From assembly GCA_964531195.1 (NCBI GenBank), contig CAZHDX010000002.1, positions 1-29,515 on the forward strand: a DNA stretch of 29,515 bases, in the 5' to 3' direction. Source of the stretch: an uncultured Nitrosopumilaceae archaeon. Its GTDB lineage: Archaea > Thermoproteota > Nitrososphaeria > Nitrososphaerales > Nitrosopumilaceae. This document shows positions 1 through 21,233 of the stretch, one piece after another. A program made the position numbers and the translations under genes. The notes under the pieces are model-generated. The model was not told the origin of the DNA. It saw only the letters and a program-made list of their open reading frames with translations, and did no database searches. Numbering within the stretch: position 1 is the first letter of the stretch; the number at the start of each line of letters is the position of its first letter.

Positions 1-152
1 CAACAAAATCACTTTCAGAGTCAGTAGGAATTACTGATTCTATTGGATCCGCTGTCATGGCAACAAAATCACTTTCAGAGTCAGTAGGAATTACTGATTC
101 TATTGGATCCGCTGTCATGGCAACAAAATCACTTTCAGAGTCAGTAGGAATT
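1..152 (+). repeat. 60-bp coding tandem repeat (about 2.5 identical copies visible, probably continuing upstream); encodes the 20-aa unit ATKSLSESVGITDSIGSAVM
   Basis: Bases 1-60 and 61-120 are identical, and 121-152 match the start of the unit. A degenerate fourth unit (KSKSFTESINIFD) stays in the same 60-nt register near 181-220. Confidence 0.97.
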
Positions 153-1043
153 GCAGATACAGTAACTCAAGGTTCACCAAAATCCAAATCGTTTACGGAA
201 TCAATTAACATATTTGATCAACTAACAGAATCATTTGCATTGCCGCCTATTCTGAAGCCAGGTGGAGAGGGCGATAGTGGTGATAGGAACCCTCCATCAA
301 TTGCCGGTTCTGCCTTTTCAGATTCGGAATATCCTTTCTCTATTAATGGAACGGGTTATCATTTATTATCACATACCAACCCAATTGAGACAGCAATTCT
401 TACCACAGGTAAGCAAGTTGATGTCAAGATACTAGTATATGATAACTCAGGACCATCAAACATACAGCATATAGGATTGTTTACCAATCTTAACGGACAA
501 AAGCAGGTAAAATCAGATAGCGACACTTACATCCTTTATGAGAAAGATCAGATGCTTCAAGTAAACGATCCAGATCACTTTTTCTCTAATGTAAATGCAT
601 CAACATCAATAATTGGAAATAAACTGCAAATCGACTTCATGATAACATTTGCAAAACCAATGGAAAAATCAGATATAATTCTTGACTTATGGGATTATGA
701 GAGAAACGACGTGCAAACAAAAATAATCAATGCGTGGCAAGTCTTGGAAAACAAGGAACCATTACAGTCTGATACTAATCAAATAATTCAAAATAATTTG
801 ATAAGCAAACCAGATGTATCAGCTAATGATCAAGACAAATTAATTTTGGCAATTAAAGAATGGGCGGGTTATTCTCAAAAATCCATCTCTGACTCGGAAC
901 TATTAGCGTTAATGGGATTAAATGGTCAACACATTCCTTACTGGGTTATGAAGATAACAAAATGGGTCATAGATGGTGAGATCAGCTTGAAAGATTTTAT
1001 CAATGCAATCAACTATCTCCATGATAAAGGGATGATAAAATAA
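3..1043 (+). CDS. 3' part of a large repeat-rich surface protein (5' end lies outside the window): 20-aa repeats, a G-rich linker, a globular domain and a C-terminal 'IPYW...KW..DGEIS..DF..AI.YL' domain
   Basis: The frame is open from base 3 (TKSLSESVG...), so the ATG at 57 is an internal repeat Met. The C-terminal domain matches three other copies in this window. Confidence 0.85.
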   Translation, partial: TKSLSESVGITDSIGSAVMATKSLSESVGITDSIGSAVMATKSLSESVGIADTVTQGSPKSKSFTESINIFDQLTESFALPPILKPGGEGDSGDRNPPSIAGSAFSDSEYPFSINGTGYHLLSHTNPIETAILTTGKQVDVKILVYDNSGPSNIQHIGLFTNLNGQKQVKSDSDTYILYEKDQMLQVNDPDHFFSNVNASTSIIGNKLQIDFMITFAKPMEKSDIILDLWDYERNDVQTKIINAWQVLENKEPLQSDTNQIIQNNLISKPDVSANDQDKLILAIKEWAGYSQKSISDSELLALMGLNGQHIPYWVMKITKWVIDGEISLKDFINAINYLHDKGMIK

Positions 1044-1145: not shown

Positions 1146-1919
1146 TCATTTTTTGTGGCCAATGGATTTAAGCCAAGAAATTTTTCTCCAATTAAAAATG
1201 AATATTATGAAAAATGAAAAAATTAAAGTTAGTACTGTCCATGGGAATTCCGGTAATGACTTGTCTGGAGATACAAGTTGGCCCCAACTTGACGGAGGAG
1301 GTATGTTGGGAAATACATTGCCTGATAAATTTTCAGGCCAATTATAAACTAGATTTTTACTTGAATCATACACTGCTGTATAAAACTTATAGTCATCAGA
1401 TCTTCCTATTGTCTCAATAGGGATTCTGAATTCATAAGATGCATGAGGAATTGAACTGTAACGATCGTTTTCATCTGAAATATTACCTATTGCAATTAAT
1501 TTAGGATCATTTTCAATTTTTGTAAGATGGTTACCAGTGGTCATAATACTCCCACCACGAAAAGTTAAAGGGTTTTGAGATCCCAACGTTACCAAAAAAC
1601 ACTTATCATCATAATCCAAACTGTTTTTGAAAGTGGGATTTGAAGTGATGCAAACGAGAGCATAATCAGAGTGTTTGCTAAATTTTTGCTGTGATAGAAG
1701 ATCTAGAAACACATATAGATTTTTGTAATCATGGCCCGTTCTTATCATAAAATTTTCTCCATAACCACTAGTCAAACTAGTTCGCTTCCACTCTTGTAAA
1801 AATGTCCACTTTCCATCCCATATGGTATAATTTCCGTCATCTCGATATGTTGTAAATATTTGATCATCTGAAGTCATGTTTATGTGAGGAAGAATTAACA
1901 GAACTAAAAATTCAAACAT
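1146..1919 (-). CDS. Exported protein with a PEF-CTERM/PEFG-CTERM-like C-terminal sorting signal
   Basis: 257-aa ORF ending LPEFPW, then a hydrophobic helix (TVLTLIFSFFIIFIF), then a basic tail (RKISWLKSIGHKK). This is the tripartite archaeosortase-type signal. Confidence 0.75.
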   Translation of the reverse strand: MFEFLVLLILPHINMTSDDQIFTTYRDDGNYTIWDGKWTFLQEWKRTSLTSGYGENFMIRTGHDYKNLYVFLDLLSQQKFSKHSDYALVCITSNPTFKNSLDYDDKCFLVTLGSQNPLTFRGGSIMTTGNHLTKIENDPKLIAIGNISDENDRYSSIPHASYEFRIPIETIGRSDDYKFYTAVYDSSKNLVYNWPENLSGNVFPNIPPPSSWGQLVSPDKSLPEFPWTVLTLIFSFFIIFIFNWRKISWLKSIGHKK

Positions 1920-1959: not shown

Positions 1960-2002
1960 ATAATACGATCATGTCTTTATACTACAGCTAGGAAAATATT
2001 TT

Positions 2003-2185
2003 GTGAAAGATAAAATTATTGGTATAGGAATTGCAATAGCTATTATTGTAAGTGTGATGATCTTGACTATGCAAGAGGAAAACAGTCTTTCAGATATTGC
2101 AGGAAAACATCTGACACCTTTGCCTGAAGGAAAACATTTGCAACTTTCTCTTAACGAATCGGTAGGAATAAAGTCAGTCTCTTAG
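2003..2185 (+). CDS. 60-aa single-pass membrane microprotein ending in 'LSLNESVGIKSVS'
   Basis: GTG start, N-terminal hydrophobic helix (IIGIGIAIAIIVSVMIL) and a C-terminal motif matching the upstream repeat unit. Confidence 0.75.
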   Translation: MKDKIIGIGIAIAIIVSVMILTMQEENSLSDIAGKHLTPLPEGKHLQLSLNESVGIKSVS

Positions 2186-2309: not shown

Positions 2310-2903
2310 ATGACTTCGAAATACGTGGCTTTGACGGTGGGATTGATTGCTATTGCATCAATGGCAGGAATATATTCACTTGATCTGACTTTCAATTCTA
2401 ATCAAAATGATGTTAAAGCTGATAAAATGAAAACCCTGGGTCATCTTCAACTGGTTCTTTATGGACCAGATGGCGACATAAAGGCATATAGACAGACAGA
2501 TAATTTGGTTGTAACAAACGGTGACAACGTGACAGCAAATCGAATCTTTGGAACCACTCTAACTACATCACACGCCTTTAGTGGTGCCTTTAACTATATA
2601 GCAGTAGGAACAGGCTCTACTGCAGTTGCGGCAACTCAGACTGATCTAACTACTGTAGCCAGTGCACACAGACTTGCGACTGTTACTAATGGAGCCATCC
2701 ATGGAACAGCTCAGGTACAGGTTACCTTTCCTGCAAATAGGTTGACAAACTCAAGCTCAGTCAACATTCAGGAATCAGGACTCTTTGATGCGTTTGGAAA
2801 TGGAACTGCAAACTCTAACATGTTTGCCAGACAAACATTTACTGCAATAGGTGTAAACCCAGCAGATACACTCCAAATTACTTGGACTGTTACTGTTACC
2901 TAA
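2310..2903 (+). CDS. Exported beta-rich protein resembling phage tail-collar/tail-fibre base proteins
   Basis: N-terminal hydrophobic segment plus motifs DNLVVT.G.N..A.R, YIAVGTGSTA.AA..T.L, I.ESGLF and MFARQTF..I.....L.ITWTVTV, recalled from phage tail-region proteins. No search was run. Confidence 0.7.
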   Translation: MTSKYVALTVGLIAIASMAGIYSLDLTFNSNQNDVKADKMKTLGHLQLVLYGPDGDIKAYRQTDNLVVTNGDNVTANRIFGTTLTTSHAFSGAFNYIAVGTGSTAVAATQTDLTTVASAHRLATVTNGAIHGTAQVQVTFPANRLTNSSSVNIQESGLFDAFGNGTANSNMFARQTFTAIGVNPADTLQITWTVTVT

Positions 2904-20351: not shown

Positions 20352-21233
20352 TTAAACATGAATCATTCCGTTGCTTGCCAAATATTGTATTCCCTTGACA
20401 AAATCATCATCTGAAATCTGACCGTCTGCCCACCATCCTGCATTTGTTTTAACCCAGCTAGGTATCTGCTGTGATTGATTTGAACTGCTCTCAGTTTTTG
20501 GAACTTTTAAAATTTCTTGATTTATCAAGTATTGTATTCCTTGAATGAATTCAGAATCAGCTAGTTGCCCCTGAGACCACCATTTTGCATTGTTTTTAAT
20601 CCATGTCGGAATTTGTAATTCATCTTGGTGTCCAGAGATTGCAAAAATGTTTGTATCAATTAAATCATATCTGATTTCAGAAATGACGCCATGTTCAAGA
20701 GTTGTTTGTCCAGCAGGAGGATGATTTGTCAAATGAAGATATAACAGCACACCTGTTGCTTTGTCAAATGCCTCCTCGCCACTACTCTCGTTTGCAGAAT
20801 GTGCCGCAGCAACTACGATTCTTTGAGAATTACTAAAGTTTTGAATCTTTTCAGAATAATCAGCATTGTTTTTGTCTATTATAATTGGAATGGGATGGAG
20901 AACGATTATTGGGTAACCAATATCATTTGTAGTTTCATTATAAAATCCTGTTTCTAGATCTAGCACACCTTTTGATTGAATCTTGTTATCGCTTGTGACA
21001 CTTGTGATAATGAAATTGATCTTGTTTGTTCCAACATGACTGCCAAAGGTATAGGTATCTGTAGTGGACACATCACCAAATTTTGTAGAATATGTAAGAG
21101 AATCTCCATTATGGAGACAGATGCTTCCTTGTACACATTCTGAATCCGATTGGGATGAGGCATCGACATTCTCCGAGATTCCGGCTATACTTGTCACCAT
21201 AATCATAATGAGGAAAAATTTCACAGATTTCAT
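20352..21233 (-). CDS. Secreted protein with two tandem C-terminal 'IP.W.K.NA.WW..GQ..D..F..GIQYL' domains
   Basis: Signal peptide ending ...NVDA; two 36-aa C-terminal repeats. Confidence 0.85.
   Translation of the reverse strand: MKSVKFFLIMIMVTSIAGISENVDASSQSDSECVQGSICLHNGDSLTYSTKFGDVSTTDTYTFGSHVGTNKINFIITSVTSDNKIQSKGVLDLETGFYNETTNDIGYPIIVLHPIPIIIDKNNADYSEKIQNFSNSQRIVVAAAHSANESSGEEAFDKATGVLLYLHLTNHPPAGQTTLEHGVISEIRYDLIDTNIFAISGHQDELQIPTWIKNNAKWWSQGQLADSEFIQGIQYLINQEILKVPKTESSSNQSQQIPSWVKTNAGWWADGQISDDDFVKGIQYLASNGMIHV

What the first reader, a model, noticed from the sequence alone, without database searches (positions are those of the whole stretch)
2003..2185. Membrane microprotein ends in a single copy of the giant protein's repeat strand
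The C-terminal LSLNESVGIKS matches the repeat KSLSESVGITDS (SLxESVGI, 7 of 8 residues). The codons differ at synonymous sites (tct ctt aac gaa tcg gta gga ata vs tca ctt tca gag tca gta gga att), which points to protein-level conservation rather than recent DNA copying. Inference: a tethered donor beta-strand that could nucleate, cap or anchor a beta-sheet polymer, or compete for the same binding groove.
Basis: partly seen in the sequence, partly recalled or inferred. Interest (0 to 1): 0.62.

Follow-up and report, generated by a model that had tools for sequence, protein, structure and literature searches.

The report
Membrane microprotein carrying portable surface tag
A 60-residue membrane-anchored protein of ammonia-oxidising archaea is a real, widely conserved gene whose last 15 residues form a short peptide tag. 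The same tag caps giant and secreted surface proteins, and the gene almost always lies next to a phage-fibre-like exported protein, which points to an undescribed way of docking proteins on the archaeal cell surface.

Summary
ORF 2003-2185 encodes a 60-aa protein with an N-terminal membrane segment. Its C-terminal SLNESVGI matches the 20-aa repeat (SLSESVGI) of the truncated upstream protein at 7 of 8 residues, with synonymous codon differences.

Within this genome the match is only mildly unusual: 0.6 such matches are expected genome-wide and about 0.01 per window. Relatives make the case.
- The microprotein belongs to a family of at least 444 sequence clusters in ammonia-oxidising archaea.
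- All 149 representatives examined have the membrane segment, a variable linker and a conserved tag: G-[KR]-x-h-x-h-x-L-x-E-x-h-G-h-K, where h is a hydrophobic residue. The tag ends 3-4 residues before the stop.
- The same tag sits at the extreme C-terminus of several unrelated secreted proteins, and just after the signal peptide of 1357+ to 2724-aa proteins that carry similar 20-aa repeats.
- In one genome the two tags are identical over 14 residues despite 11 synonymous differences.
- The gene lies next to a 197-aa exported protein with a phage fibre/baseplate-arm fold, and usually next to a 257-aa anchored protein.

Best reading: a membrane tether that presents a portable docking peptide. 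Binding, the partner and the beta-strand nature of the tag are untested. No curated family covers it. This scan has notes on it only for this window.

The parts
1..180 (+). Three copies of a 60-nt (20-aa) repeat at the contig start. The third copy is diverged at its end. Each copy encodes KSLSESVGITDS plus 8 more residues.
   Evidence: 100% identity over 2.5 copies; found nowhere else in the assembly
3..1043 (+). 5'-truncated surface protein (346 aa visible). It consists of the repeats, an Ig/CBM-like beta-sandwich (residues 94-250) and a helical C-terminal module (residues 274-346) that many proteins of this archaeal family share.
1146..1919 (-). 257-aa protein with an N-terminal signal and a C-terminal membrane anchor. 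It is the divergent neighbour of the microprotein in most relatives. Its look-alikes are CBM9/DOMON-like, which is a lead only.
1975..1982 (+). TATA-like box (ctttatac) about 25 nt upstream of the GTG start, which implies a leaderless transcript. A similar box is present at the same distance in homologous loci.
2003..2185 (+). Microprotein gene: 60 aa, GTG start, stop codon included in the coordinates.
2015..2068 (+). Hydrophobic segment (residues 5-22) preceded by Lys residues. Inferred to be a type II signal-anchor that places the C-terminus outside the cell.
   Evidence: a hydrophobic stretch is present in all 149 family representatives; the topology is inference
2129..2173 (+). Conserved C-terminal tag GKHLQLSLNESVGIK (residues 43-57). 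It is followed by three residues and the stop codon.
2310..2903 (+). 197-aa exported protein with a phage fibre/baseplate-arm-like fold. It is the constant neighbour of the microprotein.

Best explanation
ORF 2003-2185 is a genuine gene for a single-pass membrane microprotein of ammonia-oxidising archaea. A short cytoplasmic N-terminus and a membrane segment hold it in the membrane. A variable, often acidic linker then projects a conserved 15-residue peptide outside the cell.

The same peptide is a portable module. It also ends several unrelated secreted proteins, and it follows the signal peptide of giant repeat-rich surface proteins. In every case it is flanked by low-complexity linker.

I read it as a docking tag. 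It would be a short strand or hairpin that binds in trans to a common receptor, so that the microprotein acts as the membrane tether for that receptor and, through it or alongside it, for the other tagged proteins.

The most likely receptor is the co-encoded 197-aa protein, whose fold is that of phage fibre adaptors and baseplate arms.

Shown:
- the gene is real and conserved;
- the tag is the constrained part;
- the tag recurs at the termini of other surface proteins;
- the gene lies next to the 197-aa family.

Inferred:
- the membrane topology;
- the beta conformation of the tag;
- that the tag binds anything;
- the identity of the partner.
For: Conserved gene:
- Homologues occupy the same position in relatives.
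- 444 cluster representatives score at E<=1e-3, nearly all of them 56-98 aa and full length.
- Some are annotated as hypothetical proteins in Nitrosotalea devaniterrae, Nitrosarchaeum koreense, Nitrososphaera viennensis and Ca. Nitrosotalea okcheonensis.
- A TATA-like box lies 25-30 nt upstream of the start in all loci examined.

Selection at the protein level:
- Between two close Nitrosarchaeum-like genomes the membrane segment is identical, the linker carries two in-frame 6-nt indels, and all three changes in the tag region are synonymous.
- In G290 the microprotein tag and the tag of the 2724-aa protein are identical over 14 residues, yet differ at 11 of 42 nucleotides, all synonymous.

The tag is the conserved part and its position is fixed.

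The tag is portable:
- It forms the extreme C-terminus of proteins of 96 to 423 aa from at least five unrelated families.
- It lies at residues 45-85 of proteins of 1357+, 2401 and 2724 aa.
- Per-genome E-values reach 1.8e-7.
- This genome has a second C-terminal copy at contig C1:20418-20729.

Link to the 197-aa family:
- The family is adjacent in every locus that has a full-length microprotein.
- All 13 genomes with a small-ORF microprotein hit in the order-wide sample have the 197-aa family, against 83 of 301 overall.
- Its fold matches the Haloferax tailed virus 1 tail protein (Z 10.5), phage GP4 fibre I, the phi812 arm and A511 gp105, and it matches phrog_5417.
Against: - No binding, structure or expression data exist.
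- AlphaFold could only be run on single chains here, so no complex was modelled.
- One genus (g32) keeps the 257-aa and 197-aa pair without a microprotein, so the 197-aa protein does not need it.
- Two tag-positive genomes (80-88% complete) showed no 197-aa homologue.
- The 197-aa protein has its own N-terminal hydrophobic segment and may anchor itself.
- The conserved G-[KR] before the tag and the conserved Glu and Gly inside it would suit an enzyme recognition site as well as a binding epitope.
Confidence: 0.45

Rival explanations
1. The tag is one unit of the giant proteins' 20-aa repeat. It pairs with those repeats directly, so that it nucleates, caps or membrane-anchors a beta-sheet fibre built from them.
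For: - Recurrent likeness between the tag and the repeat unit: 7 of 8 residues in this genome; SITLSE-x-V shared by the tag and a repeat unit in G290; SLS-[ED]-x-V-x-I shared in G019.
- The G019 giant's repeat (KSLSDSVSITDS) matches this window's repeat at 10 of 12 residues.
- Two of the three giants that carry the N-terminal tag (G019, G290) also carry the repeats.
- Repeat proteins lie within 1-10 kb in G000, G019, G257, G290 and G123.
Against: - The tag profile scores a repeat unit at only 6.2 bits.
- The tag's near-invariant Gly is absent from the repeats of G007, G019 and G290.
- The h-x-h-x-L part of the tag has no counterpart in the repeats.
- The repeat region is predicted unstructured as a monomer.
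- Many tag-bearing proteins have no such repeats.
- In G104 the tagged large protein is 546 kb from the microprotein.
Confidence: 0.15
2. The tag is a recognition signal for an enzyme or a sorting machine, with cleavage after the conserved G-[KR], or glycan, lipid or cross-link attachment. Alternatively, the microprotein is a precursor of a released 15-17-residue peptide.
For: - Positions are strongly conserved: G-[KR], Glu, Gly.
- The tag sits a fixed 3-4 residues from the C-terminus.
- It occurs only at protein termini next to linkers, as sorting and processing signals do.
Against: - No candidate enzyme is conserved in the neighbourhood.
- No curated sorting-signal model matches.
- The tag is not followed by a membrane helix, unlike the PGF-, PEF- and PEP-CTERM or LPXTG signals.
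- In the giants the tag is N-terminal and is followed by thousands of residues.
Confidence: 0.2
3. The likeness to the neighbouring repeat is coincidental, arising from Ser/Leu/Glu/Val-rich surface-protein composition. The microprotein works only with the 197-aa and 257-aa neighbours, for example as a subunit that copies the first strand of the 197-aa protein.
For: - 0.6 matches of this quality are expected per genome, and one unrelated match was found.
- The profile score of a repeat unit is insignificant.
- The best profile-profile alignment of the microprotein with the 197-aa family puts the tag on that protein's first strand (LGH-h-x-h), with P = 0.009.
Against: - The full tag, not merely a likeness, is present on the giant repeat proteins and on secreted proteins.
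- Tag and repeat resemble each other in three genera.
- The profile-profile hit has only 4.5% probability.
Confidence: 0.18
4. The ORF is not translated. It would be a spurious frame or a decayed 5' fragment of a giant-protein gene.
For: - It uses a GTG start and is short.
- Its layout (hydrophobic segment, linker, tag, stop) mirrors the first 70-85 residues of the giants.
Against: - The family has 444 clusters of constant length and architecture.
- Indels are in-frame and changes in the tag are synonymous only.
- The promoter box is conserved.
Confidence: 0.02

Closest known systems
Donor-strand complementation filaments: archaeal threads (PMC9715654), TasA (PMC9674648), Pyrodictium cannulae (bioRxiv 10.1101/2024.12.30.630787) and bacterial chaperone-usher pili
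   Same: A short terminal strand flanked by linker would insert into another protein's beta-sheet to hold extracellular assemblies together without a cofactor. The partner candidates are beta-rich exported proteins.
   Different: In those systems the donor strand belongs to the polymerising subunit itself. Here the strand sits on a separate membrane microprotein and on unrelated cargo proteins, at either terminus. No incomplete fold or polymer has been shown. There is no sequence or family relationship.
C-terminal surface sorting signals: PGF-CTERM/archaeosortase, PEF-CTERM, PEP-CTERM/exosortase, LPXTG/sortase
   Same: A short conserved motif at the end of many unrelated secreted proteins of one lineage, preceded by a low-complexity linker.
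   Different: Those signals consist of a motif, a membrane helix and a basic tail, and they are removed by a dedicated transpeptidase. This tag is followed by 3-4 residues and a stop, it can also be N-terminal, and no processing enzyme is linked to it. No NCBIfam model matches.
Phage fibre adaptors and baseplate arms: Haloferax tailed virus 1 tail protein (9h4p), GP4 fibre I (8jou), phi812 arm (9fko), A511 gp105 (6hhk)
   Same: The neighbouring 197-aa protein shares this fold (Z 8-10.5) and matches phrog_5417. In phages, such domains join fibres to other parts through short terminal segments.
   Different: Here the protein is chromosomal, found in 83 of 301 sampled genomes of the order, exported, and paired with a cellular membrane microprotein. 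No other phage genes are nearby.
Cohesin-dockerin and SLH-type surface docking modules
   Same: A portable module on diverse secreted proteins that would bind a common anchored receptor.
   Different: Those modules are folded domains of 60-150 residues. This one is a 15-residue peptide, and there is no sequence or fold relationship.

Membership tests
Any curated protein family (Pfam-A, NCBIfam, PHROGs) for the microprotein | Significant match to a family model | tested here: not met
   No families matched in Pfam at E<=0.1, in PHROGs at E<=0.1 or in NCBIfam at E<=1.
Archaeal/bacterial C-terminal sorting signals (PGF-/PEF-/PEP-CTERM, LPXTG) | The motif is followed by a hydrophobic helix and a basic tail at the C-terminus | tested here: not met
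   The tag ends 3-4 residues before the stop in 123 of 129 family members. The membrane segment is N-terminal.
Archaeal/bacterial C-terminal sorting signals (PGF-/PEF-/PEP-CTERM, LPXTG) | A dedicated sortase or exosortase-type enzyme co-occurs or is linked | not tested
   No such gene was seen in the loci inspected. No genome-wide co-occurrence search was done.
Donor-strand complementation systems | The acceptor subunit has an incomplete beta-sandwich with a groove for a foreign strand | tested here: inconclusive
   The monomer model of the 197-aa protein is complete, with its own first strand paired in cis. Monomer models often self-complement, and the coordinates could not be inspected.
Donor-strand complementation systems | The donor strand shows an alternating hydrophobic pattern and is flanked by flexible linker | tested here: met
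   An h-x-h-x-L pattern is conserved. The linkers are variable and low-complexity in the microproteins, the cargo proteins and the giants.
Donor-strand complementation systems | Strand insertion between subunits is demonstrated | not testable with these tools
   No multimer prediction or experiment was available.
Phage fibre adaptor / baseplate arm fold (for the neighbouring 197-aa protein) | Structural similarity over most of the domain | tested here: met
   VIA-align gives Z 10.5 (132 residues aligned) to 9h4p_BD and Z 8.1-8.2 to 8jou_a, 9fko_A and 6hhk_C. Foldseek gives E 2.6e-4.
Phage fibre adaptor / baseplate arm fold (for the neighbouring 197-aa protein) | Sequence relationship to phage proteins | tested here: met
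   phrog_5417 matches at E 5.9e-19. There are weaker hits to virion structural and tail-fibre PHROGs.
The repeat family of the upstream protein (is the tag one copy of it?) | The tag profile matches the repeat unit significantly | tested here: not met
   A single repeat copy scores 6.2 bits over 8 profile positions. The likeness recurs in three genera but stays short.

The most novel reading that the evidence does not exclude
Ammonia-oxidising archaea have a previously unrecognised surface-docking system built from three things: a 15-residue terminal peptide tag, a membrane microprotein that presents the tag as an anchor, and a domesticated phage fibre-adaptor protein that binds it. Giant repeat proteins and assorted secreted proteins would use this system to attach to the cell.
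Probability: 0.25. Interest if true: 0.8.

Novelty: new variant of a known kind. Interest (0 to 1): 0.6.

Why it matters
Ammonia-oxidising archaea are among the most abundant microbes in soils and oceans. How they hold proteins on their surface, beyond the S-layer itself, is largely unknown.

A short portable tag shared by a membrane microprotein, giant adhesin-like proteins and secreted proteins would give a handle on three things:
- predicting the surface proteome of these archaea;
- studying how giant surface proteins are attached;
- understanding how a phage fibre part was adopted by cells.

The tag is small enough to test with synthetic peptides, and it might be useful as an affinity or display tag. 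The case also shows that a 60-residue ORF with a GTG start can be a widely conserved gene.

Tried and rejected
- Family searches. Pfam, PHROGs and NCBIfam gave nothing for the microprotein or the tagged proteins. The exception is DUF333 in one cargo protein.
- Solved-structure search. A sequence search with the 197-aa family profile gave only chance hits.
- Profile-profile comparison. The tag alone against the 197-aa family gave nothing. The whole microprotein gave a weak hit in an interesting register, kept only as a lead.
- Structure prediction. The model of the upstream protein did not resolve the repeats (pLDDT about 30). Its sandwich domain matches only generic Ig/CBM folds.
- Translation evidence. 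The N. viennensis homologue's accessions were not found in any paper text, nor in the one supplement held for a glycoproteomics paper.
- Sequon hypothesis. I considered that the N-E-S in the tag is an N-glycosylation sequon. I rejected this because most homologues lack an Asn there.
- Gene conversion. I considered recent DNA copying as the cause of the tag identity in G290. I rejected this because 11 of 42 nucleotides differ.
- Other repeat copies. A search of the assembly for more copies of the 60-nt repeat found none.
- False positives. Two 57-aa ORF hits in genus g33 look spurious.
- Failed calls. One look-up failed on wrong coordinates. One findings search failed on word count.

Full report
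**What is in the window**

The window is the first 29.5 kb of contig C2 of a 1.5-Mb, 35% G+C assembly of an ammonia-oxidising archaeon close to Nitrosotalea.

ORF 2003-2185 (+) starts with GTG and encodes 60 residues:
- two lysines among the first four residues;
- an 18-residue hydrophobic segment (residues 5-22);
- a polar linker;
- the C-terminus GKHLQLSLNESVGIK followed by SVS.

The 'giant protein' of the finding is ORF 3-1043, which is open at the contig start. Its first 60 residues are three copies of a 20-aa unit containing KSLSESVGITDS, encoded by a 60-nt repeat that is 100% identical over 2.5 copies. No other contig holds this repeat, so the true size of the protein is unknown. The closest homologue of its C-terminal part found in a relative (G007) is complete at 414 aa and has about five repeats.

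Between the two genes, on the other strand, lies a 257-aa anchored protein (1146-1919). Downstream lies a 197-aa exported protein (2310-2903).

**Is the match more than chance?**

SLNESVGI and SLSESVGI share 7 of 8 residues and 17 of 24 nucleotides.

I scanned all six-frame ORFs of the genome for matches of at least 7 of 8 residues to any register of the repeat. Outside the repeat protein there were two matches, against 0.6 expected from shuffles, or about 0.01 for one window. A profile built from the microprotein family's tag scores one repeat copy at only 6.2 bits.

Within this genome, then, the match is suggestive and no more.

**The microprotein is a real, widespread gene**

Relatives of the same genus and family have an ORF of 60-80 aa in the same place.

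An exhaustive profile search found 444 cluster representatives at E<=1e-3, nearly all 56-98 aa and matched end to end. Some are deposited as hypothetical proteins in Nitrosotalea devaniterrae, Nitrosarchaeum koreense, Nitrososphaera viennensis and Ca. Nitrosotalea okcheonensis.

Among 149 representatives:
- all have the N-terminal hydrophobic stretch;
- 129 match a strict pattern, G-[KR]-x-h-x-h-x-L-x-E-x-h-G-h-K;
- the pattern ends 3-4 residues before the stop in 123 of those 129.

The linker varies in length and sequence. A TATA-like box lies 25-30 nt upstream of the start codon in every locus I read, which fits leaderless transcripts.

Two comparisons show selection on the protein:
- Between two closely related genomes the membrane segment is identical, the linker has two in-frame 6-nt indels, and the three changes in the tag region are all synonymous.
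- The second comparison, within G290, is described in the next section.

I found no direct evidence of translation.

**The tag is portable**

A 20-position profile of the tag was searched in 121 genomes of the family. It found the microproteins and also other proteins. Earlier searches had found some of these already.

In several unrelated secreted proteins of 96-423 aa, the tag is the extreme C-terminus after a Ser/Thr-rich or acidic linker. Examples are a DUF333-containing protein and a coiled-coil-like acidic protein.

In large proteins the tag follows the signal peptide, at residues 45-85. These are proteins of 1357+, 2401 and 2724 aa in three Nitrosotalea-genus genomes, and truncated proteins of more than 339 and more than 466 aa in another genus. 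One giant has two tags in tandem.

Ten of the ten strongest non-microprotein hits are terminal. This genome has one more, an ORF on contig C1 that ends in the tag.

In G290 (Ca. N. okcheonensis) the microprotein tag and the giant's tag are identical over 14 residues (RHLSITLSENVGIG), while 11 of the 42 nucleotides differ, all synonymously. That is sustained protein-level constraint, not recent copying.

Two further examples come from the unpublished genomes G001 and G287. They are not needed for the argument. G001 also supplied one row of the alignment used for the model of the upstream protein.

**Relation to the repeats**

Two of the giants with the N-terminal tag also contain arrays of 20-aa repeats:
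- G019 has KSLSDSVSITDS-type units, which match this window's repeat at 10 of 12 residues.
- G290 has TLSETVTASD-type units, and one unit shares SITLSE-x-V with its own tag.

However, the tag's near-invariant Gly and its upstream h-x-h-x-L part are not features of the repeats. The profile match is also insignificant. Homology between tag and repeat is therefore possible but not shown.

AlphaFold gives the repeats of the upstream protein a pLDDT of about 30. It models the beta-sandwich (residues 94-250) and the helical C-terminal module (residues 274-346) well. Whether the repeat forms a strand is open.

**Neighbours**

Every locus with a full-length microprotein also has a homologue of the 197-aa protein beside it. 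In the Nitrosopumilaceae family this homologue lies 50-190 bp downstream on the same strand. In the Nitrososphaera group it is divergent or preceding. Most loci also have the 257-aa protein.

In the order-wide sample, all 13 genomes with a small-ORF microprotein hit carry the 197-aa family, against 83 of 301 genomes overall.

Starting instead from 30 loci of the 197-aa family, about 17 have the microprotein. One genus (g32) keeps the 257-aa and 197-aa pair without it.

Of ten further tag-positive genomes tested, eight have the 197-aa family. The two without it are 80-88% complete.

Repeat-rich giants lie nearby in several genomes:
- directly upstream of the 197-aa gene in G123;
- two genes away in G019;
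- 8-10 kb away in G257 and G290.

In G275 a large tag-bearing protein, cut by the contig end, lies about 9 kb away. In G104 the tagged large protein is 546 kb away.

**What the neighbours are**

The 197-aa family has no Pfam or NCBIfam model, but it matches phrog_5417 at E 5.9e-19.

Its model (pLDDT 76; domain 41-197 mostly above 80) matches four phage structures:
- the tail protein of Haloferax tailed virus 1 (Z 10.5, 132 residues);
- phage GP4 fibre I;
- the phi812 arm segment;
- Listeria phage A511 gp105 (Z 8.1-8.2 for the last three).

These are fibre adaptors and baseplate arms.

The 257-aa protein has only weak look-alikes of the CBM9/DOMON kind.

**Mechanism**

The tag is always an isolated peptide between a linker and a terminus. 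It is strongly constrained, and it is shared by a membrane-anchored carrier and by secreted or giant carriers. The simplest reading is a docking peptide for a common receptor, with the microprotein as the membrane tether.

The 197-aa protein is the best candidate receptor, for two reasons: its constant linkage to the microprotein, and the role of its fold in phages.

A weak profile-profile hit aligns the tag with the first strand of the 197-aa protein (P 0.009, probability 4.5%). This hints that the tag could take the place of that strand, as in donor-strand exchange. I treat it as a lead only.

Three rivals remain open:
- recognition of the tag by a processing or sorting enzyme, or release of a peptide;
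- coincidence of the repeat likeness, with the microprotein serving only its two neighbours.

A spurious ORF is effectively excluded.

**Comparison with known systems and novelty**

The arrangement works most like two known kinds of system:
- donor-strand systems: archaeal threads (PMC9715654), TasA (PMC9674648) and cannulae (bioRxiv 10.1101/2024.12.30.630787);
- terminal sorting tags.

It is not a member of either. No membrane helix follows the tag, no enzyme is linked to it, no incomplete fold has been shown, and no curated model matches.

I rate it a new variant of a known kind: a new microprotein family and a new terminal tag whose function is inferred.

The only notes in this scan on this family are on this same window.

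Noticed in passing
window 2310-2903: The 197-aa exported protein is a chromosomal homologue of phage fibre-adaptor and baseplate-arm domains (Z 10.5 to the Haloferax tailed virus 1 tail protein; phrog_5417). It is found in 83 of 301 sampled genomes of the order, often in two or three copies in the Nitrososphaera group.
   Followed up: partly
window 822-1040 (residues 274-346 of ORF 3-1043): The helical C-terminal module of about 45-70 residues recurs at the end of dozens of otherwise different proteins across this archaeal family, including ORF 20352-21233 (-) of this window (match at 20361-20474). It may be a second, separate surface-attachment module.
   Followed up: partly
G000 contig C1:20418-20729 (+), outside the window: A second ORF of this genome ends in the tag (a K-S-I-N-L-N-E-T-V-G-I type sequence, three residues before the stop). 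Part of the ORF is masked.
   Followed up: no
window 2102-2140: The microprotein has G-K-H-L twice, nine residues apart (residues 34-37 and 43-46). This looks like a partial duplication of the start of the tag.
   Followed up: no
L085 (G257:C8:76-4146, minus strand): The large protein of this genome carries two tags in tandem near its N-terminus, separated by about 14 residues.
   Followed up: no
G290:C1:1552929-1553147, just beyond the end of L051: A 97-aa partial copy of the 197-aa family lies about 460 bp downstream of the 2724-aa tagged giant. In G123 a complete copy follows a repeat giant directly.
   Followed up: partly
L073 (G179), plus L068 and L080 from unpublished genomes: A family of proteins with a conserved N-terminal P-H-N-Y-R-x-V-G motif followed by a membrane segment also ends in the tag. 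Like the microprotein it is a membrane-anchored carrier, but a larger one.
   Followed up: no
window 1146-1919 (-): The 257-aa anchored protein is the conserved divergent partner of the 197-aa gene, even in genomes without the microprotein. Its look-alikes are of the CBM9/DOMON kind.
   Followed up: partly
window 1-152: The contig begins inside a perfect 60-nt tandem repeat. The assembly broke there, so the upstream gene is incomplete and its repeat number is unknown.
   Followed up: yes
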